From NCBI GenBank assembly GCA_033664045.1, contig GCA_033664045.1_3674.1: a stretch of DNA of 64,000 nucleotides; one strand, given 5' to 3'. The notes below the pieces were generated by a model, which was not told the origin of the DNA, searched no databases, and saw only the letters and a list, made by a program, of their open reading frames with translations. The DNA comes from a phage. Of the stretch, positions 12,224 to 56,013 are shown in pieces; within the stretch, counting starts at the first letter, position 1; the number at the start of each line of letters is the position of its first letter. A program made the position numbers and the translations under genes.

Positions 12224-15001
12224 ATGAGTATGTATAGCTTCGATTTTGAGGCCTCTGGGCTTTTGGAAGATCCAGACCTTTATTATCACTGCGGCCTGTT
12301 TAAAGCGTTGAATAAGAACCGTTTTATGCTGTTCCTTCCTCTGAATGACCGCACACACTACTCCGAGGAGGATATAGAGAAGGCTAAGAACTTTATTCTG
12401 GCAAAGAAAACTCTTTATAAGGATTTTGAAGTTCGCATAGCAGATTTTTCGGAGTTGGAAGGGTGGCTTACAGGAAATTCTGACTGGTCACCCACAGCTT
12501 TGAACTGCCACAACTGCTACAGCTACGACTTTATGCTGATGGAGAGATTGTCCGGTATTCATTTTGATATGTTCCGTGATCCTAAGTGTATGGGGACTAT
12601 CAACGACCACCAGGTTAATCTGTTTGATACATTGGCTATGAGCCGAATTTTGTGGCCTGACCGACCTTTGCCAAAAGGTTGTCCAGACGCTGTATTCAAC
12701 CCGGTTACTAAGAAAATGCAGCCTGTTGGTCCTCACGGCCTTATGGCATGGGGCTACGCTCTTGGTAACCAGAAAGTTCAAATTGATGACTGGCGCGATC
12801 TTCCGTTGTGGAAGTATGTGGATCGTGTATTCGAGGACGTTATCATCCAGGAGCTGCTCTGGAAAGAGCTGGTAGCGGAATCAAAAGGTGTATTCTACGG
12901 CAAATCTGACATGCAGAACTTTATGTACGATCCTGCCAAAGAGAAGCCGAAAGGATTCAAGAAGATCACCTGGAAGAACGCATTACGTCGAGGCATGCTG
13001 CAGCACTTCCTGATGGAGCTGCAGGCCCGTCAGGGCGTATACTTCGACATAGATGGAGCTATTGCTTTACGTGACCGTTGCGATGCGTGGATGAAAGAAA
13101 TCGCTGATCGTGTTGAACCACAACTGCCTTTAAAAGAGCTGTCAATGTCTCAGCGGCCCAAGTTCCCTGAAAAGCCGTTTAACCAAGACGGGACAATCTC
13201 CAATAATGGTTGGAAATGGTTAAAAGATAAGCTTGGCTATCCTGTAGACATGAGCGCTTTAGAGTTCAAAGCCCCGCCTAAGAGAGCATTTACCTCTACA
13301 GGAGATGTCAGCAAGATGGGGATAAAATGGTGTGAAGAGATGGGATGCAAAGACCCCGATAAGATGGCTGATTTCTTGAGAGGCTATATTAAGGGCACTT
13401 CCACACCACACCCTTTGCCTAAAGAGCTGATGGATCAGGCAATAAGTGATCTACAGCAGAAGCGAATGCCGGACTGCAAGATACCTATGAAAATCAGCAA
13501 CCAGGACGACATTAAGCGATACCTGATCAGTGCTGGCTGGCTTCCGACAATGTGGAGAACTAAGGATGTAACTAAAGACAGCAAGAAGAAAGCTTTACCT
13601 GATGCAGATGTTGATGCACGAGTATATGCATATATGGACGAGCTTTTGGAGTCAGAGTATTGTGACCTAATTATCAACTTCTGGAACAAAACTGATGCTA
13701 AGTTCCAGACAACCGTGCACAAGTTCCGAAGCTTTCCTAACTCCGAAAGGATTAAAAAGGAAGTATTCGGGAAAATACGTAGAAAAGCTAGGGCACTTAT
13801 TACTTCTCCGCAACTGAAAGATACGTTTGGACACCTATGCCCAAATCTTGAAAAATTGAACGGAGAGATGGCTAAAGATATCGTCTTGTGGTTATCATTG
13901 CGAAACCGCAGATCGGTCCTTGATCCAATCAAGGAGGATAAGGTTGATACTGGTCTTCTTAATCACCCACGCTTGAAGATTGACCATAAGCTTCCTGCTA
14001 AAAGTTCTGGATTAACAAACACTTCCCGACAGAAACACAGTATTTGTGCAAACATGCCTAAACCATCTCCTAAAGTGGTTATGGGTAAAGAGATGCGTAG
14101 TCTGTGGGGTGTTCCTCCAGGATACTTTGAGATCGGTATTGACGGGTCCAACTTAGAGCAGCTTATCGGGGCTTGGGGTGCCTTTGAGTTCGACAACGGC
14201 TTGTATTATGATGTTGTAAGTAACGGGGACGCACACCAAAACAATGCTGAGGCATATACAAAAGTAGCAGGCAGAGAGGTGTCTCGTAACGACGGTAAAC
14301 CTATCACGTATGGGGTTATGTACGGGGCACAAAAAGATAAAGTTGCAGACATGCTGGATATCTCTCCAGAGTTGGGGCAAAGGGTAATCGATGCGCTTTG
14401 GGATGCCAACCCAGGTCTTAAGGGGCGTAAAGAGGATCTGGAGAAATTCTGGGAAGCAACTGGTAAGAAGTTTATCTACTCTTTTGATGGTCATGCCATC
14501 TGGACCCGATCTAAACACTCTTTACTTAATGCATACCAACAAAATGGCGGTGCATCGTTGTGTGATTTAGTTGGGATACTCATGCACCACCAAATGGTGA
14601 GGCGTGGGTGGTACGATGAAGGTGTTCGTCGTATTATCTATTACCATGACGAATATCAGCTTCAAGTACCTGACACACCGAAGTATAAGACTGTGTACAC
14701 CTTCGACACAATTGAAGAATTGGAAGCATTTAAGGCAGAGCAGGAGGCCAAACTTCATGTGTTCGACGGTCATAAGTACAAAAAGGCACGCAAGGATGAA
14801 AACGGAAACGAAGTGGTTGACAGAGACGGAAACACGGTGTACGATCCTATCTTGAACGATGACGGAAAGCTTGAACTTATCTGGAGTCCTGTGGGCGAAA
14901 TGGTGGTACATTGCTTCTGGCAAGCTTCTAAAATGATGGGAGTCCCGTTCCAGATCACAGGTGAATACTTGTGTGGTCGTAATTGGGGTGATTGTCACTA
15001 A
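12224..15001 (+). CDS. DNA polymerase, family A, with 3'-5' exonuclease domain
   Basis: Exo I FDFEASG; motif A IDGSNLEQL; motif B RNDGKPITYGVMYGAQ; motif C YYHDEYQLQV. Confidence 0.9.
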   Translation: MSMYSFDFEASGLLEDPDLYYHCGLFKALNKNRFMLFLPLNDRTHYSEEDIEKAKNFILAKKTLYKDFEVRIADFSELEGWLTGNSDWSPTALNCHNCYSYDFMLMERLSGIHFDMFRDPKCMGTINDHQVNLFDTLAMSRILWPDRPLPKGCPDAVFNPVTKKMQPVGPHGLMAWGYALGNQKVQIDDWRDLPLWKYVDRVFEDVIIQELLWKELVAESKGVFYGKSDMQNFMYDPAKEKPKGFKKITWKNALRRGMLQHFLMELQARQGVYFDIDGAIALRDRCDAWMKEIADRVEPQLPLKELSMSQRPKFPEKPFNQDGTISNNGWKWLKDKLGYPVDMSALEFKAPPKRAFTSTGDVSKMGIKWCEEMGCKDPDKMADFLRGYIKGTSTPHPLPKELMDQAISDLQQKRMPDCKIPMKISNQDDIKRYLISAGWLPTMWRTKDVTKDSKKKALPDADVDARVYAYMDELLESEYCDLIINFWNKTDAKFQTTVHKFRSFPNSERIKKEVFGKIRRKARALITSPQLKDTFGHLCPNLEKLNGEMAKDIVLWLSLRNRRSVLDPIKEDKVDTGLLNHPRLKIDHKLPAKSSGLTNTSRQKHSICANMPKPSPKVVMGKEMRSLWGVPPGYFEIGIDGSNLEQLIGAWGAFEFDNGLYYDVVSNGDAHQNNAEAYTKVAGREVSRNDGKPITYGVMYGAQKDKVADMLDISPELGQRVIDALWDANPGLKGRKEDLEKFWEATGKKFIYSFDGHAIWTRSKHSLLNAYQQNGGASLCDLVGILMHHQMVRRGWYDEGVRRIIYYHDEYQLQVPDTPKYKTVYTFDTIEELEAFKAEQEAKLHVFDGHKYKKARKDENGNEVVDRDGNTVYDPILNDDGKLELIWSPVGEMVVHCFWQASKMMGVPFQITGEYLCGRNWGDCH

Positions 15002-40219: not shown

Positions 40220-40615
40220 TTACTGAAACAGTGCGGATAAATTACCTTCTGGTGGGAACTTATCTGCCAAAAACGGTGTTAGCACAGTAGCCTTCTGAAG
40301 ATCTGGGGTCCACTCGTTGTTCAGAACATCCCAGTAGTACGCAATGTTGCTGTGTGGGTGCCGCATTACGAACTTTTTCCCTTCGTAGTCATCTGAAACC
40401 TCTACAGAAGAAATAACAACAGAATCTTCAAGGGTTTCTTCATAGAAAGATCCACCTTCAAATTTCCAACGAGATGCAAGAGCCCCTGCCTTGAACGCTG
40501 CAGATAACGGACTGTCGGCAAGAACATACATTTCTTGCACTCTGTCGCTGCGATCTTTGCTTCTTACGTTGTATACAGTATCTGAGCTATACTCAACACG
40601 GTATAGGCTTACCAT
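40220..40615 (-). CDS. hypothetical protein (family B paralog)
   Basis: FVMRHPHSNIAYYWDVLNNEWTP matches 42425 ORF FVIVHPDSRVKHYWNARTKTWTP. Confidence 0.55.
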   Translation of the reverse strand: MVSLYRVEYSSDTVYNVRSKDRSDRVQEMYVLADSPLSAAFKAGALASRWKFEGGSFYEETLEDSVVISSVEVSDDYEGKKFVMRHPHSNIAYYWDVLNNEWTPDLQKATVLTPFLADKFPPEGNLSALFQ

Positions 40616-41309: not shown

Positions 41310-41579
41310 TTATTCCTCTACAATCTCATACACATCAGGAGTTACAATCAACTCTTCTCCGTTACCCGGTGCAACAAACACCACCATTCCTTCAGGTGTG
41401 TGCTTTTTAGCCATCTCGATAACATCTTCTCGCAGAGCTGGCTCCATCAGATCAAAACCTTCACCCAGGGCATCACGAACCACCTTCATATAGTCAACTG
41501 GTTGTGCTTCGACAATCATGCCTTCAACCAGTCCACAGTTTTTGTCTGCCAGCTCAGTTTTGAATAATTTAATTTTCAT
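41310..41579 (-). CDS. hypothetical small acidic protein (family C)
   Basis: MKIKLFK N-terminus; C-terminal VYEIVEE. Confidence 0.5.
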   Translation of the reverse strand: MKIKLFKTELADKNCGLVEGMIVEAQPVDYMKVVRDALGEGFDLMEPALREDVIEMAKKHTPEGMVVFVAPGNGEELIVTPDVYEIVEE

Positions 41580-41716
41580 TTAGAGGTCTCCTCAATTATT
41601 TGATATTAATAGCCGTAACCTAACACATTAACTACAACTGCGATTGCAAACATAATTTCAAAGCATGCAATCTCTACATTTGGGACTAATTTCTTAATCA
41701 CGCCCATTGTAGCACC

Positions 41717-42034
41717 TCATTCTCCAAAGTCAATCTTTACTTTGCCTTTCCTCTTACCTTTCTTTCCACCACATTTAGCCAGCTGACGTGCTGCAACATC
41801 TACCATACGGTCAGTTGCCTCGTAAGCATCACCTCCTTTAGCCTTGGCAATAACTTCTTTTCCAGAATTGTCAAAAATGAACGCCATAACTTCCTGGCGA
41901 TCATTTTCAACTTTTACACTCACACGTGCATGATTTACAGAAGGATGTAGACGCTCCAGTTTTGACATTTTTTGGGAAATGAAAGACACCATGCCTTCGG
42001 TGATTTCTACGTTGCCAGTGATCTCAATTTGCAT
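41717..42034 (-). CDS. hpf: ribosome hibernation promoting factor (HPF/RaiA family)
   Basis: collinear with E. coli HPF: MQIEITGNVEIT...KLERL...VSVKVE...GKEVIAKAKGGDAYEATDRMVDVAARQLAK vs MQLNITGNNVEIT...KLEQY...VVLKVE...GGEIHASAEGQDMYAAIDGLIDKLARQLTK. Confidence 0.8.
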   Translation of the reverse strand: MQIEITGNVEITEGMVSFISQKMSKLERLHPSVNHARVSVKVENDRQEVMAFIFDNSGKEVIAKAKGGDAYEATDRMVDVAARQLAKCGGKKGKRKGKVKIDFGE

Positions 42035-42116
42035 AACGTGTTCCTTTTAAAGAAGAGGGAACCAAACCCTCTTTGAAAACAATGATACTAAATCTGAAGC
42101 GTTGTGTCAACAGTTT

Positions 42117-42424: not shown

Positions 42425-42823
42425 TCAGCTTATTTTTTCTTCAACAACCCCGTAGCTCGGGGCAGAGTCAAGAGCTTTCTGGTTTAAAAGTGGTGTAGCA
42501 GAATCTGCAAACGGTGTCCAGGTTTTTGTTCTGGCATTCCAGTAATGCTTCACTCTGGAATCAGGATGCACTATAACAAAAACTTTTTCACTTGTCAACA
42601 CATTAATTTCTTCCACACCCCTGCTGATAATTTCTCCGTCATATCCCCCGGTCTGGTATCCTTCGTACCAGGTTCTTGCATAGGCATAGCCAGCCTGCCA
42701 GCATGCAGCCTCCTCCGAGGTGGAGACTACGTAGAAGTCTTTCTCAAATTCTGGGATACGCCCTTGCTTTACGCTCCAAGCTCCGCGAATTTTCATTGTA
42801 ACTTTGAACAGTTTATTTTTCAC
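42425..42823 (-). CDS. hypothetical protein (family B paralog)
   Basis: paralog of 40220 ORF. Confidence 0.55.
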   Translation of the reverse strand: MKNKLFKVTMKIRGAWSVKQGRIPEFEKDFYVVSTSEEAACWQAGYAYARTWYEGYQTGGYDGEIISRGVEEINVLTSEKVFVIVHPDSRVKHYWNARTKTWTPFADSATPLLNQKALDSAPSYGVVEEKIS

Positions 42824-42835
42824 AACGGTTACCCA

Positions 42836-43090
42836 TCACAGCTCTACAATATCTGCATCTGACCCTGCCCCAAAGGCATAATATGACTCTTCCCCGAAAT
42901 AATATTCCGGTGCACCAGCCGCGATCAGGTCTGATCCCAAGATGAACACCACATTGTGGCCTACATAGCTGTGATTTTGCCGCACAGGATCATCCCACGG
43001 CAACCCTTCGAAGTATACAGCAGGTACGATCTTTCCCTTCAGGAATGATTGCCCCAAGTAGACGTTAGAGTCAAGAATTTTAACCTTCAT
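42836..43090 (-). CDS. hypothetical small protein (family A paralog)
   Basis: MKVKILDSNVYLGQ...GSDLIAAGA shared with 43080 and 46712. Confidence 0.55.
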   Translation of the reverse strand: MKVKILDSNVYLGQSFLKGKIVPAVYFEGLPWDDPVRQNHSYVGHNVVFILGSDLIAAGAPEYYFGEESYYAFGAGSDADIVEL

Positions 43091-43304
43091 GATCGTCCTC
43101 CACTACCTCTACATCCTCGCCTAGGGCAAAGTTGTAATTCCACTGACTGTCAAAGCATTCCTGAGATGCGCCAGCGGCAATAAGATCTGACCCTTTTATT
43201 TTTAAAAGGTCAGGGTAATCTTCATTAGGAACAGCGGTAAACACTTTTCCAACCAAAGGCTCTTGACCAATATAGAAGTTTGAATCTAAAACTTTAACTT
43301 TCAT
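43080..43304 (-). CDS. hypothetical small protein (family A paralog)
   Basis: MKVKVLDSNFYIGQ...GSDLIAAGA...VEVVEDD. Confidence 0.55.
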   Translation of the reverse strand: MKVKVLDSNFYIGQEPLVGKVFTAVPNEDYPDLLKIKGSDLIAAGASQECFDSQWNYNFALGEDVEVVEDDHEG

Positions 43305-46187: not shown

Positions 46188-46715
46188 TCACATCTCCTGG
46201 TTCAAACTGTTAAGAAAGGATACTCTGTCTTCGCTATTTTTCTCTGTGATATACCCTCCAAACATGGAAAGAATCACATGCTTCAAGTAATCTTTTTCTG
46301 GGTCGCTTAGATGATTGCGTGGCTTTATTTCCACATCATGGTAGTCATACAATCCACAATCATGATACCCCCAGTATCGACACACCTCAATACTGATCGG
46401 GAGTTTTTTGTCACACGAAACTTTCCAACGGGTTACGTTGTTACCAGGGGATAAATCCTCGCCCACCTTCACGAATGACAAATCGTAATTCATAAACTTT
46501 TCGTACAGTTTAAGTACAAAACCCTCGACCTGTGGAGAAACACCAGCCACTAGCTGGGCGTATCTATATTTACTTTCAATAATTTTTCGGCGCTTTGCTG
46601 TAAGGTTTATTGCAGCAATTTGACTCTCTGAGTATCTCCAAGGCTTGTATATAAATGCTTTCGGGTCTTTATCGCCATAAAAATCTTTCCAATCAACTAG
46701 CAGCATACCTGTCAC
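46188..46715 (-). CDS. hypothetical protein
   Basis: co-directional ORF. Confidence 0.5.
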   Translation of the reverse strand: MTGMLLVDWKDFYGDKDPKAFIYKPWRYSESQIAAINLTAKRRKIIESKYRYAQLVAGVSPQVEGFVLKLYEKFMNYDLSFVKVGEDLSPGNNVTRWKVSCDKKLPISIEVCRYWGYHDCGLYDYHDVEIKPRNHLSDPEKDYLKHVILSMFGGYITEKNSEDRVSFLNSLNQEM

Positions 46716-46945
46716 TCCTCCACAACTTCAAGGCCTTTTCCGCCTCGTTCTGGTAGATTACTTAAAGACAGGTAATACGTATAGTCAGGAGAGATCCTGC
46801 CAGACTCTGCACCTGCAGATAGTAAATCTTTTCCCTTAACCATGACAACATTATCGTTTGCAGATAGTCGTTTTGCTTCCACAATTTTACCAACGCAGTC
46901 AACCAAGGAAGGGTACCCTAAATCTGTAAGAAATTTAACTTTCAT
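46712..46945 (-). CDS. hypothetical small protein (family A paralog)
   Basis: MKVKFLTDLGY...GKDLLSAGA...LEVVEE. Confidence 0.55.
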   Translation of the reverse strand: MKVKFLTDLGYPSLVDCVGKIVEAKRLSANDNVVMVKGKDLLSAGAESGRISPDYTYYLSLSNLPERGGKGLEVVEE

Positions 46946-53076: not shown

Positions 53077-54366
53077 TTATTTACTCAACGGACAACAGTC
53101 TACATTCCCAACATGTTTAACACGTTCGATAACCTCTGCTTGTTTACCTGTGTTATACGGTCTACTGTTCGGGCTGGAGAGATAGCCAGACACTCTTCGG
53201 ATCACTGAGATATATTGTTCATCGTGGCATCCACACGCAGGGCAGCAGAACCCTTTAGCTGTTGCACTGAACTCACCAGAGAAACCACACTTAAGACATT
53301 TATCCACAGGTTGGTTAATACCAAAATACATAATGTGTTTATACCCGAAATCGACAAGGGCTTCCAAAGCATCCAAGTTGTTTTTCAGGTTAGGTGTTTC
53401 TATGTATCCAATGTTGCCGCCAGAAGAGATCATAGCAAAACCTTCCTCATACTTCCACTTATCAAAAGGCGAGCTGTTGATCCATACTGGCTGATGGAAA
53501 CTGTTGGTGAGGTATTCATGCTCGTGCTTCAACACTTCTGGGTATTCACGATCCAGACAGGTTGCAGCTTTATAGCATAAACTCTCAGAAGGTGTGCCGT
53601 ACAAGCTAAATGCTAGTCCACTTTCCTTCTTATATCGATCACAAGCATCTTTCATATGCTGAAGGATTCCAAGAGCTAAAGCCTTGTCACCCTCTCTGCC
53701 CAAAATTTGGCAGGTTTCATACACACCAATATACCCAATACTGATGGAAGCGTACCCGTCATAGAAGAGTTTATCGATACTCTCTTCAGGATCCAGGCGA
53801 GCAAGAGCTCCTTCACACCACATGATAGGGTTCTGCCCAGCCTTGGTGCCTTTCAAACGATTAACTCTTACAAGGTGAGCCTCATATGCCAAATCCAAGT
53901 ATTCGTCAAGAACGGCAAAGAAATCAACACCTTCCGTCTTAGCTTTTGCCGCAATCATTGGCAGGTTAAGACTAACAACCCCCAAGTTGAATCTGCCGAG
54001 GTATTTCTCCTCACCTGTTTCCAAGTCATTGTATTTGCTAAGAAAACTCCGGCAACCCATGCTCGTTACTTTGCCATCTGTAGAGCCTGTCACTTTACGA
54101 TTTAGTGGAACAGAAACAAAGTCAGGATAAATCCGCTCTGCAGAGCATTCCAGAGCTAATCGTTTCAAATCATAGTTAGGATCTCCAGGGTTCATGTTGA
54201 CACCTTCTTCTAGGAAGAACAGCACTTTAGGGAACACAGGTGTGATACGTTCTTCACCAAGACCCATTTTGTGGACTTTCAAGTAGTTTTTGGTAATCAT
54301 TCTACCAAATACTGAGGTGTCCAGACCTAAACTTAATGTGATGAATGGAGTCTGCTGTCTCCTCCC
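53077..54366 (-). CDS. nrdD: anaerobic ribonucleoside-triphosphate reductase, 3' exon (glycyl-radical half)
   Basis: QQTPFITLSLGLDTS...GDPNYDL collinear with E. coli NrdD QVPFSSINYGT...GDPNYDL; Zn ribbon CLKCG...CPACGC; glycyl-radical motif RRVSGY. Confidence 0.85.
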   Translation of the reverse strand, partial: GRRQQTPFITLSLGLDTSVFGRMITKNYLKVHKMGLGEERITPVFPKVLFFLEEGVNMNPGDPNYDLKRLALECSAERIYPDFVSVPLNRKVTGSTDGKVTSMGCRSFLSKYNDLETGEEKYLGRFNLGVVSLNLPMIAAKAKTEGVDFFAVLDEYLDLAYEAHLVRVNRLKGTKAGQNPIMWCEGALARLDPEESIDKLFYDGYASISIGYIGVYETCQILGREGDKALALGILQHMKDACDRYKKESGLAFSLYGTPSESLCYKAATCLDREYPEVLKHEHEYLTNSFHQPVWINSSPFDKWKYEEGFAMISSGGNIGYIETPNLKNNLDALEALVDFGYKHIMYFGINQPVDKCLKCGFSGEFSATAKGFCCPACGCHDEQYISVIRRVSGYLSSPNSRPYNTGKQAEVIERVKHVGNVDCCPLSK

Positions 54367-55161
54367 CTGTGTTTCCACAGGGCCAGACTATCTCTTACTC
54401 TACTTCAATAAGATAATAACCCTTTATTGTGAGATGCTTACCTTCGGCATTTCCTTCGATAGCCCTATGAACGTTACCTACGTTCAAATTTAAGGCTTTT
54501 GCACAGGCATAGAGTGAAGGATATTCACCCACCAAGGTTTTCCCTTTGTATGCCTGCACTTTCCTATAGCACTTGCCTGGGCAAAGCCCTGTTCGGAAAG
54601 CATGTCTCTTATTATCTTCCGGCAAAACCCACTCTAGGTTAGACGGATGATCATTCAATGTATTGCCGTCTTTATGATTCACTTCCCAGTTTTCAGGGTC
54701 TTCTGGGACATCTGGCAAACAATACAAGGCAACAATCCTTGAGGTTTGGATTCGAATCTTTTTACCTTTGTGGTTGAAAGAGTACATATAACGGCGTTTA
54801 ACATGCTTGTTACCTTTTCCATAACCTCCCCACAATATTGGGTGTAGCATTCCACGTTTTCCGTATACGTTTCCAACCTCATCAATCACATAGTTTGATT
54901 CTTCACCATTAAGAATGATCTTTTTCATAGAGCCTCTCCATTTCGAAGTTAGTATTTCAACTAACCCCTACACTACTTGGTTCAGAAATGTTTGTCAAGC
55001 ATCTCTGCCTTTCGTTAGTCGTTACAACCGTTCCAACTCCTGTAAGAACTAGTCACGGGATTGGCATAGCTTTCGCCTTAGCGTTCCCCGTTAGCCGGAT
55101 TTACCGACCCCTCTTATGAGGTTAGGAGAGTTTTACAACGGCCAGTTTGTTAACCGTTGAC
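54367..55161 (-). mobile_element. putative group I self-splicing intron interrupting nrdD
   Basis: splits a collinear NrdD reading frame; 5' exon ends in U, proposed intron ends in G; P7-like GACUA ... UAGUC segments; carries HNH ORF. Confidence 0.6.
54395..54928 (-). CDS. HNH homing endonuclease (intron-encoded)
   Basis: HNH core EVNHKDGNTLNDHPSNLEWVLPEDNKRHA. Confidence 0.8.
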   Translation of the reverse strand: MKKIILNGEESNYVIDEVGNVYGKRGMLHPILWGGYGKGNKHVKRRYMYSFNHKGKKIRIQTSRIVALYCLPDVPEDPENWEVNHKDGNTLNDHPSNLEWVLPEDNKRHAFRTGLCPGKCYRKVQAYKGKTLVGEYPSLYACAKALNLNVGNVHRAIEGNAEGKHLTIKGYYLIEVE

Positions 55162-56013
55162 AGAAGTTAACGTATTGATTTGATAAAGCAACGTCTGCAT
55201 GCTGTCAAACACGTCTTTATCTGTCATTTGCATTGCAACAGTCTCAGCATCTGGCAACCAATGTTCCTGGCAAAACTTAAGGTTCTTCTCATAGGTTGCT
55301 TCAGCATATTGTGCCAGATAATGATCAATATGGCTCATAGTCTGACCACCATATTGAGCACTAGCTACCGCACTAGAGATTTGGCTAAGGATTGTTGTTG
55401 CAACCCCTATTGACTTCGGCTTACTGACATGGGCGTTGCCAATGTTGAATCCGTTTTCCAACATATCTGGATAATTTACCAAACAACAGTTTGTTAACGG
55501 ACTGATCAAGTAGTCAAGATCATGCACATGGATGAAGCCTCTATTGTGCTCTTCTGAGACACGGTCTGGCAGGATTTGTGTTGATGCAAGGTGTTTGCTA
55601 AGGATGCCTGCAAGCAGGTCACGATGAGTGTGTACATGATTGGTAGGCTTATTTGCGTTTTCTTTTGTAAATTCATCACAAGTGCGATCCAAGAAGCCAC
55701 TAATATCTGCAAGCAGTTTTCCACCTGCCTCTCTGTTATTATCTCTTGTCTGCCTATACTGGATGTATTCTCTGGCTGCACATTTTAAACCCATATCCAT
55801 AAAAGCGTCTTCAACAAGGGTATGGATATTTTTTACAGAGATCGTGCACTGGTCGGTTGGTAGATTGTTAGCAACAACTTCATTAACCGCGCAGGCGATC
55901 CGGTAAGCTTCTTCTTCAGTATGCCCAGACTCAAGTAAGGCGGACTCTGCCGCCTTGATCACCTTAATTCCGTTATAGACCTCTTCTCTACCGTCCCGTT
56001 TTACAACTTTCAC
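55162..56013 (-). CDS. nrdD: anaerobic ribonucleoside-triphosphate reductase, 5' exon (ATP-cone half)
   Basis: ATP-cone MKVVKRDGREEVYNGIKVIKAAESA; HVHDLDY; ends ...YQINTLTS; track ORF 55150-56013 reads into intron. Confidence 0.8.

What the first reader, a model, noticed from the sequence alone, without database searches (positions are those of the whole stretch)
41717..42034. Phage-encoded ribosome hibernation promoting factor homologue
The 105-aa product is collinear with bacterial HPF/RaiA over its whole length (sequence comparison given in the feature list) and adds a short Lys/Gly-rich tail. A phage copy of a factor that dimerises or silences ribosomes suggests direct manipulation of host translation during infection.
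Basis: partly seen in the sequence, partly recalled or inferred. Interest (0 to 1): 0.7.

Follow-up and report, generated by a model that had tools for sequence, protein, structure and literature searches.

The report
Known phage ribosome-hibernation-factor homologue
The gene is a real homologue of the bacterial ribosome hibernation factor HPF carried by rV5-like E. coli phages. It was already published in 2019 and is annotated in over a hundred phage genomes, and what it does during infection is still not shown.

Summary
The ORF at 41717..42034 (minus strand, 105 aa) is real and belongs to the HPF/YfiA family. It scores 50 bits against Pfam PF02482 and passes the TIGR00741 cut-off. An AlphaFold model superposes on V. 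cholerae and E. coli HPF at about 1 Å. The 16-17 residue Lys/Gly tail is real and predicted disordered.

The window comes from a Vequintavirus (rV5-like coliphage). The gene occurs in 119 phage records, usually annotated as a hibernation factor or RaiA, and evolves under purifying selection (dN/dS about 0.1). It has its own conserved sigma70-type promoter.

It is not new. Mizuno et al. 2019 described the rV5 copy and expressed it in E. coli. They found it in cell extract but not in 70S/100S ribosomes washed in 500 mM NH4Cl, and 100S levels did not change.

My added points:
- The phage clade keeps the rRNA contacts K26, R83, K87 and K91 (E. coli numbering).
- It has lost K80, K89, T53 and H55.
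- It passes neither the HPF nor the RaiA equivalog model.
- No phage record encodes an RMF homologue.

Most likely it binds vacant ribosomes independently of RMF and parks or protects them. That is inference. Homology is supported, the mechanism is unproven, and novelty is low.

The parts
41717..42034 (-). Complete CDS of the phage HPF-family protein (105 aa plus stop)
   Evidence: ORF; PF02482 and TIGR00741 above their cut-offs; orthologue of rV5 gp139 / ORF144
41768..42034 (-). [quoted passage not shown]
   Evidence: AlphaFold model with core pLDDT about 90 and elements E2-7, H13-29, E33-43, E46-55, E60-67, H70-89. Foldseek: TM-score normalised to target length 0.94 and rmsd 1.0 A to V. cholerae HPF 4hei; 0.90 and 1.1 A to E. 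coli HPF 6h4n_x
41717..41767 (-). Codons 90-105 plus stop: Lys/Gly-rich tail GKKGKRKGKVKIDFGE, predicted disordered
   Evidence: pLDDT below 50 for residues 91-100. Tail beyond residue 88 carries net charge +5. Length and frame vary among isolates, but the basic K/G part is always kept
42042..42046 (-). Shine-Dalgarno AAGGA, 7 nt before the ATG
   Evidence: Read from the sequence. A ribosome-binding site is annotated at the same place in phage Murica
42082..42110 (-). Sigma70-type promoter TTGACA-17-TATCAT directly upstream of the gene
   Evidence: 7 such sites in the window against 0.14 expected. Annotated as promoter P144 in the rV5 record. The -35 box is conserved even in the lineage that is 63% identical
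41706..41733 (-). Promoter-like site TTGACT-16-TACAAT (TG-extended) overlapping the last codons (IDFGE) of the gene; would drive the downstream small genes
   Evidence: PhagePromoter predicts a promoter at the same place in phage Gotham. Consensus match only

Best explanation
The gene encodes a diverged short-HPF-type ribosome hibernation factor. It was captured from a gammaproteobacterial host by the ancestor of rV5-like phages and has been kept as a functional gene. This part is shown: family membership, predicted fold, purifying selection, presence throughout the genus, and a dedicated sigma70-type promoter within a long block of small same-strand genes.

The rest is inferred. The protein is probably made by host RNA polymerase during infection. 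It probably binds vacant 30S/70S ribosomes in the decoding-centre channel (A/P sites), where HPF and RaiA bind, using the retained contacts K26, R83, K87 and K91 (E. coli numbering). The extra Lys/Gly tail probably supplies electrostatic grip that replaces the lost contacts K80 and K89. It would extend towards the mRNA channel and RMF site, as the RaiA tail does.

The phage has no RMF, so the protein would act independently of RMF, more like RaiA than like the HPF-RMF pair. Its effect would be to park and protect idle ribosomes from nucleases such as YbeY and RNase R. This would matter when infection stalls or the host is starving and can no longer make its own factors.
For: - Family and fold.
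- Closest cellular relatives are enterobacterial short HPFs at 42-45% identity. RaiA is far weaker (E=0.07; 20 bits).
- dN/dS is 0.08-0.19 against seven other Vequintavirus copies.
- A syntenic copy at 63% identity exists in a sister lineage.
- The gene is in 119 phage records, the same number that carry a DNA polymerase at 90% identity or more. It was not detected in other Vequintavirinae genera.
- Conserved sigma70-type promoter.
- Retained against lost contact residues: mapped onto the contacts reported for Gram-negative HPF in bioRxiv 10.1101/2025.10.07.680626.
- Basic disordered tail; pI 9.3 against 6.5 for E. coli HPF.
- No RMF homologue in any phage record.
- HPF/RaiA/RMF protect 16S rRNA from YbeY and RNase R, and the RaiA tail reaches the RMF site (PMC7913689).
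Against: - Mizuno et al. 2019 expressed the rV5 protein in E. coli. They detected it in crude extract but not in 70S or 100S fractions, and saw no effect on 100S.
- Two of the five strictly conserved alpha2 basic contacts (K80, K89) are replaced in both phage lineages. So are the m2G966 contact T53, the uS9 contact H55 and the family-conserved R17.
- The protein fails the NCBIfam HPF equivalog cut-off (58 against 125 bits).
- I found no expression-timing data and no knockout data.
- The extreme C-terminus is truncated or frameshifted in some isolates, so at least that part is dispensable, or those records contain sequencing errors.
Confidence: 0.5

Rival explanations
1. Anti-hibernation decoy. 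The phage protein competes with host HPF/RaiA, and through its tail with RMF, for the same site, but it binds weakly or reversibly. This prevents or dissolves 100S dimers and keeps ribosomes available for phage mRNAs in slow-growing hosts. Mizuno et al. proposed this idea.
For: The idea was put forward in PMC6375957. The tail leaves alpha2 where the RaiA tail starts, and the RaiA tail is thought to block RMF binding. Loss of K80 and K89 fits weaker, easily displaced binding, as does the absence of the protein from salt-washed ribosomes.
Against: A factor sitting in the A/P site still blocks translation, so it must leave before any benefit arises. No change in the small 100S fraction was seen on expression, although RMF is scarce at that growth stage. 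No direct evidence exists.
Confidence: 0.2
2. Exapted protein that no longer works on the ribosome. The HPF fold (related to dsRBD-like folds) with a new poly-Lys tail binds another RNA or protein target.
For: The protein was not found in ribosome fractions although it was present in the extract. Several family-conserved ribosome contacts are replaced in both phage lineages. It fails both the HPF and RaiA equivalog models. It is separated from every cellular HPF by 55% or more sequence divergence.
Against: Residues that are ribosome contacts or family-invariant in cellular HPFs are still invariant across the two phage lineages: K22, K25, D69, Y71, D75, R83 and K87. These include R83, the single arginine that contacts m4C1402. 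High-salt washing is used routinely to strip associated factors from ribosomes (PMC4889938), so the negative result is expected even for a true binder.
Confidence: 0.2
3. Host shut-off factor. The protein silences or dimerises host ribosomes in bulk, early in infection, to stop host protein synthesis.
For: Family function. The sigma70-type promoter is compatible with early transcription.
Against: HPF-type factors do not distinguish host from phage mRNAs and bind only vacant ribosomes, so bulk silencing would also stop phage translation. Constitutive expression into late exponential phase left the ribosome profiles and 100S unchanged, and the authors reported no toxicity. Short HPF needs RMF to form 100S, and the phage has none.
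Confidence: 0.1

Closest known systems
E. coli / gammaproteobacterial short HPF (YhbH; PDB 2rql, 4v8h, 6h4n; V. cholerae 4hei)
   Same: Best sequence match (E about 1e-12, 42-45% identity, collinear over residues 1-89). [quoted passage not shown] Keeps K23, K26, D69, Y71, D75, R83, Q84, K87 and K91 in E. coli numbering.
   Different: One residue shorter in the beta1-alpha1 loop. R17, T53, H55, K80 and K89 are replaced. It is 10 residues longer, with a Lys/Gly tail. pI is 9.3 against 6.5. It fails the HPF equivalog cut-off. It has no RMF partner in the phage. It is driven by a phage sigma70-type promoter rather than a starvation-induced one.
RaiA / YfiA / protein Y
   Same: Same fold and presumably the same binding site. 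It also has a C-terminal extension beyond alpha2. Working without RMF is the behaviour I infer for the phage protein.
   Different: Sequence similarity is much weaker (E=0.07; 20 bits against a 158-bit cut-off). The RaiA tail, as I recall the sequence, is longer and ends acidic. The phage tail is Lys/Gly-rich and basic.
rV5 gp139 / ORF144 (ABI79209, YP_002003641), the viral HPF of Mizuno et al. 2019
   Same: Orthologue: 94% amino-acid identity, same position, same promoter, same tail.
   Different: Six substitutions: Q21H, V33A, H35Y, R46H, G68S, R95G. The window copy has one more arginine in the tail.
Other phage-encoded HPF-family genes (PHROG 8990; Cronobacter phage GAP32)
   Same: Same Pfam family carried by a virus.
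   Different: A separate PHROG: the window protein belongs to phrog_12469 and matches phrog_8990 only at E=2e-7. Mizuno et al. place GAP32 elsewhere in the tree, so these appear to be independent acquisitions.

Membership tests
HPF/YfiA family (Pfam PF02482 Ribosomal_S30AE; TIGR00741) | Profile match above the curated cut-off | tested here: met
   PF02482 50.1 bits against 23.7; TIGR00741 50.8 bits against 40.9
HPF/YfiA family (Pfam PF02482 Ribosomal_S30AE; TIGR00741) | [quoted passage not shown] | tested here: met
   AlphaFold model with core pLDDT about 90. The top 36 Foldseek PDB hits are all HPF, YfiA or pY chains. This is a predicted structure, not a solved one
HPF/YfiA family (Pfam PF02482 Ribosomal_S30AE; TIGR00741) | Conserved ribosome-contact residues (K26, K80, R83, K87, K89, K91; T53/H62; H55/E60 in E. 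coli numbering, from bioRxiv 10.1101/2025.10.07.680626) | tested here: inconclusive
   Kept: K26, R83, K87, K91, E60 and a hydrophobic residue at 62. Replaced: K80 to V, K89 to G, T53 to F, H55 to F, plus R17 to V
HPF/YfiA family (Pfam PF02482 Ribosomal_S30AE; TIGR00741) | Binds the 30S A/P-site channel of vacant ribosomes | not testable with these tools
   The published attempt on the rV5 orthologue was negative after a 500 mM NH4Cl wash. High-salt washes strip associated factors, so it is not decisive
Short HPF (E. coli HPF equivalog, NF007780) | Equivalog-level profile score | tested here: not met
   58.1 bits against a cut-off of 125
Short HPF (E. coli HPF equivalog, NF007780) | Works with RMF to convert 70S/90S into 100S dimers | not testable with these tools
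   No RMF homologue in any phage record. No effect on 100S when expressed in E. coli
RaiA/YfiA (NF007654) | Equivalog-level profile score | tested here: not met
   20 bits against a cut-off of 158; PDB YfiA chains match at E=0.07-0.1
RaiA/YfiA (NF007654) | C-terminal extension of about 18 residues reaching the RMF site | tested here: inconclusive
   An extension exists: 10 residues longer than HPF, disordered and basic. It is unrelated in sequence to the RaiA tail, and where it goes on the ribosome is unknown
Long HPF | C-terminal dimerisation domain | tested here: not met
   Only PF02482 is matched, and the protein ends at residue 105

The most novel reading that the evidence does not exclude
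The Lys/Gly-tailed phage HPF is a self-sufficient, RMF-independent ribosome-parking factor. The phage uses it to preserve host ribosomes after takeover, for example while it waits inside starved or dormant gut E. coli (the 'phage hibernation' described in PMC10761892), or to shield the decoding centre from host ribosome-targeting nucleases. The tail would occupy the RMF/anti-Shine-Dalgarno region in place of the lost core contacts. That would be a viral variant of ribosome hibernation with its own binding mode.
Probability: 0.2. Interest if true: 0.6.

Novelty: already known. Interest (0 to 1): 0.25.

Why it matters
A virus carrying a ribosome hibernation factor suggests that phages manage the host's ribosome pool, not only its mRNAs. 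This could affect how lytic phages cope with starved or dormant bacteria in the gut. The gene itself was reported in 2019 and is routinely annotated. What remains open is its mechanism. The only experiment was negative under conditions that would also strip the host's own factors. The residue-level picture here (three of five alpha2 contacts kept, a new basic tail, no RMF) gives concrete mutants and assays to settle the question.

Tried and rejected
- **5'-UTR hairpin.** A hairpin lies between the promoter and the start codon (about 42047-42068). It is not more stable than shuffled sequence (z=-0.52) and is absent in the 63%-identical lineage, so I dropped it.
- **A second HPF gene.** The neighbouring 89-aa gene (41310..41579) is labelled 'sigma 54 modulation factor' in several GenBank records. 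It has no PF02482 match, so this is an annotation slip.
- **A phage RMF partner.** tblastn of E. coli RMF (sequence from memory) against all phage records at E up to 1 found nothing.
- **More divergent viral relatives, for tail evolution.** The word-indexed protein search found only 5 proteins. The IMG/VR scan found 2 loci. The exhaustive representative search found one other 50% cluster. The clade is narrow.
- **Newer functional work.** Searches for papers on phage HPF, Vequintavirus hibernation or Vequintavirinae transcriptomes found nothing beyond Mizuno 2019 and a 2020 re-mention.
- **tRNAs and Rfam families.** None in the window.

Full report
**Observation.** The window has an ATG-initiated ORF of 105 codons at 41717..42034 on the minus strand. 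AAGGA lies 7 nt upstream of the ATG (sequence). The product matches Pfam PF02482 (Ribosomal_S30AE / sigma-54 modulation protein) at E=4.7e-13, 50.1 bits against a gathering score of 23.7. The match covers residues 3-89 on profile positions 1-84 of 88. It also passes NCBIfam TIGR00741 (HPF/YfiA family; 50.8 bits against 40.9). Against the PDB, the best matches are E. coli HPF chains 2rql, 4v8h and 6h4n (E about 1e-12), aligned 1-89 to 1-89 with a single one-residue gap. RaiA/YfiA chains match only at E=0.07-0.1.

**Fold.** I built a 41-sequence alignment from the exhaustive representative search. The AlphaFold2 model from it has mean pLDDT 82.5, with about 90 over residues 1-88. [quoted passage not shown] Foldseek against the PDB returns only hibernation factors in its top 36 hits. 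V. cholerae HPF 4hei leads (target-normalised TM-score 0.94, rmsd 1.0 A), followed by E. coli HPF in the 100S ribosome, 6h4n_x (0.90, 1.1 A). The tail is predicted disordered. Beyond residue 88 it carries net charge +5, which raises the pI to 9.3 against 6.5 for E. coli HPF.

**Source and distribution.**
- The surrounding 2 kb is 96% identical to BASEL phage JeffSchatz and about 95% identical to more than 100 other rV5-like phages of genus Vequintavirus.
- tblastn finds the gene in 119 phage records at 87-95% identity.
- The annotations vary: 'ribosome hibernation factor', 'sigma 54 modulation factor', 'RaiA', 'hypothetical protein' and, wrongly, 'ATP-dependent protease La'.
- The window's DNA polymerase also has 119 matches at 90% identity or more.
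- Other Vequintavirinae genera (53-58% polymerase identity) gave no HPF hit, either with the phage protein at E up to 1e-5 or with E. coli HPF at E up to 0.01. The gene therefore appears genus-wide and genus-specific. I compared counts, not accession lists.
- In the exhaustive search of 1.84 billion representatives, the only close relative is P0004 (64% identity, 103 aa). The next hits are cellular HPFs at 45% identity or less, starting with an enterobacterial HPF.
- P0004 lies on phage contigs of up to 126-137 kb, in the same gene order. That region is only patchily similar to Vequintavirus (72-80% identity over about 22% of the region). It is a sister lineage, so the acquisition predates the split.
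- IMG/VR holds only two loci.

**Selection and tail variation.** Nei-Gojobori dN/dS between the window copy and seven other Vequintavirus copies is 0.08-0.19. dS is saturated against the sister lineage. The gene is therefore maintained by purifying selection. The tail is the variable part:
- Murica ends ...KGKGKAK (99 aa).
- APECc02 ends ...KGKGERQSKD (101 aa).
- YN3 lacks VK.
- S127 lacks GE.

All of them keep the K/G-rich basic stretch. Some of these variants may be sequencing errors in the purine-rich run. The last codons (IDFGE) overlap a promoter-like TTGACT-16-TACAAT site at 41733..41706. Their nucleotide conservation may therefore reflect that site rather than the protein.

**Expression signals.** TTGACA-17-TATCAT lies at 42110..42082, directly upstream of the gene. 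It is annotated as sigma70-type promoter P144 in the rV5 reference record. The -35 region is identical in the sister lineage. The pattern TTGACA-N16-18-TATNAT occurs 7 times in the window against 0.14 expected, always co-oriented with the local genes. The gene sits in a block of more than 40 small same-strand genes, nearly all annotated as hypothetical. Transcription by host RNA polymerase, and hence early or middle timing, is an inference. I found no transcriptome data.

**Prior knowledge.** Mizuno et al. 2019 (Nat Commun, PMC6375957) list rV5 ABI79209 (105 aa) and five related coliphages as encoding HPF. They place these among gammaproteobacterial HPFs in a phylogeny and suggest that viral HPF might compete with the host protein to prevent ribosome dimerisation. 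They expressed the rV5 gene from pBAD24 in E. coli NM522. MS found its peptides, including the C-terminal VKIDFGE, in crude extract but none in 70S or 100S fractions. 100S abundance did not change. Cells were harvested at OD600 = 1, and ribosomes were pelleted through 500 mM NH4Cl. The authors themselves name growth phase and salt stripping as possible reasons. High-salt washing is the standard way to remove associated factors from ribosomes (PMC4889938). Mathieu et al. 2020 (PMC6969025) mention the gene again in five new rV5-like phages. I found no later functional study. The finding is therefore already known.

**What this analysis adds.** A recent cryo-EM study of Gram-negative hibernating ribosomes (bioRxiv 10.1101/2025.10.07.680626) lists the HPF residues that contact the ribosome. 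I mapped these through my alignment, using E. coli numbering.

| Group | E. coli HPF residue | In the phage clade | Contact reported |
|---|---|---|---|
| Kept | K26 | K | phosphates next to m3U1498 |
| Kept | R83 | R | m4C1402 (the single essential arginine) |
| Kept | K87 | K | 16S rRNA, alpha2 basic contact |
| Kept | K91 | K | 16S rRNA, alpha2 basic contact |
| Kept | E60 | E | C-terminus of uS9 |
| Kept | position 62 | hydrophobic | m2G966 motif |
| Lost | K80 | V (T in sister lineage) | 16S rRNA, alpha2 basic contact |
| Lost | K89 | G (S in sister lineage) | 16S rRNA, alpha2 basic contact |
| Lost | T53 | F | m2G966 motif |
| Lost | H55 | F | C-terminus of uS9 |

The clade also replaces family-conserved R17 with V and has lost one residue from the beta1-alpha1 loop. 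K23, D69, Y71 and D75 are nearly invariant in the family and are also kept.

The protein fails both equivalog models: HPF at 58 against 125 bits, and RaiA at 20 against 158 bits. No RMF homologue exists in any phage record. It is thus a diverged short HPF. Its binding surface is partly remodelled, and it has gained a poly-Lys tail at the point where the RaiA extension starts. The RaiA extension heads towards the RMF site.

**Mechanism.** The reading I think most likely (confidence about 0.5) has three parts. The protein still binds vacant 30S/70S ribosomes at the HPF/RaiA site. It does so without RMF. The tail compensates electrostatically for the lost core contacts. The effect would be to park and protect idle ribosomes in infected cells. 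This matches the role shown for host factors against YbeY and RNase R (PMC7913689), and it would matter most when the host is starved or takeover has stopped host gene expression.

The rivals are:
- an anti-hibernation decoy (0.2);
- an exapted, non-ribosomal function (0.2);
- bulk host shut-off (0.1).

Family membership, predicted fold, selection, distribution and promoter motif are shown. Ribosome binding, the tail's path, expression timing and the benefit to the phage are inferred.

**Verdict.** The feature is already known, so interest is low to moderate. The open question is mechanistic and can be tested with the experiments listed under next steps.

Noticed in passing
window 53077-56013 (minus strand): The anaerobic ribonucleotide reductase gene nrdD is split. 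55150..56013 encodes an ATP-cone plus NrdD profile positions 1-154. 53077..54378 encodes positions 155-562 plus the glycyl-radical domain. An HNH endonuclease ORF (54395..54928) lies between them. No Rfam intron family matched at gathering threshold.
   Followed up: partly
window 40220-40615 / 42425-42823; 42836-43090 / 43080-43304 / 46712-46945: The hpf gene sits among paralogous small genes of unknown function: a 131/132-aa pair (31% identity, E=3e-9) and a 74-84-aa family (42% identity, E=9e-16). This suggests local duplications in this block of small genes. None has a Pfam match.
   Followed up: partly
window, 7 sites: 15267, 16467, 21584, 27417 (+); 42082, 49971, 51363 (-): TTGACA-N16-18-TATNAT sigma70-type promoter motifs occur 7 times against 0.14 expected. 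All are co-oriented with the local genes: plus strand in the left part of the window, minus strand in the right part.
   Followed up: partly
window 41310-41579 (minus strand): This 89-aa neighbour is annotated 'sigma 54 modulation factor' in several GenBank records (APECc02 and S127 BCL3; several MN850xxx records carry that label twice in this region). It has no PF02482 match. The true hpf gene is labelled 'ATP-dependent protease La type I' in MT884008-11 and OR0625xx. These are annotation slips.
   Followed up: yes
GenBank MG0656xx records: Eighteen records named 'Campylobacter phage', with host given as Campylobacter (C. jejuni in 16), carry this E. coli rV5-like region at about 95% identity. 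The host labels look doubtful.
   Followed up: no
L003 (phage Murica) 401-700: The Murica copy has an extra Asn (TGNNVEIT), which restores the loop length of cellular HPFs. It also has a frameshifted, shorter tail (99 aa). This may be real variation or sequencing error in purine runs.
   Followed up: no
window 41606-41707 (minus strand): A 33-aa hydrophobic ORF lies immediately downstream of hpf. It is annotated as a CDS in most relatives and as 'putative membrane protein' in one record, and it sits behind the promoter-like site that overlaps the end of hpf.
   Followed up: no
relatives of window 12224-15001 (DNA polymerase): In several relatives (isim, phiWec196, RudolfGeigy, PDX, rV5) the DNA polymerase match comes in two pieces, with an inserted HNH endonuclease or hypothetical ORFs. 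In the window the gene is uninterrupted.
   Followed up: no
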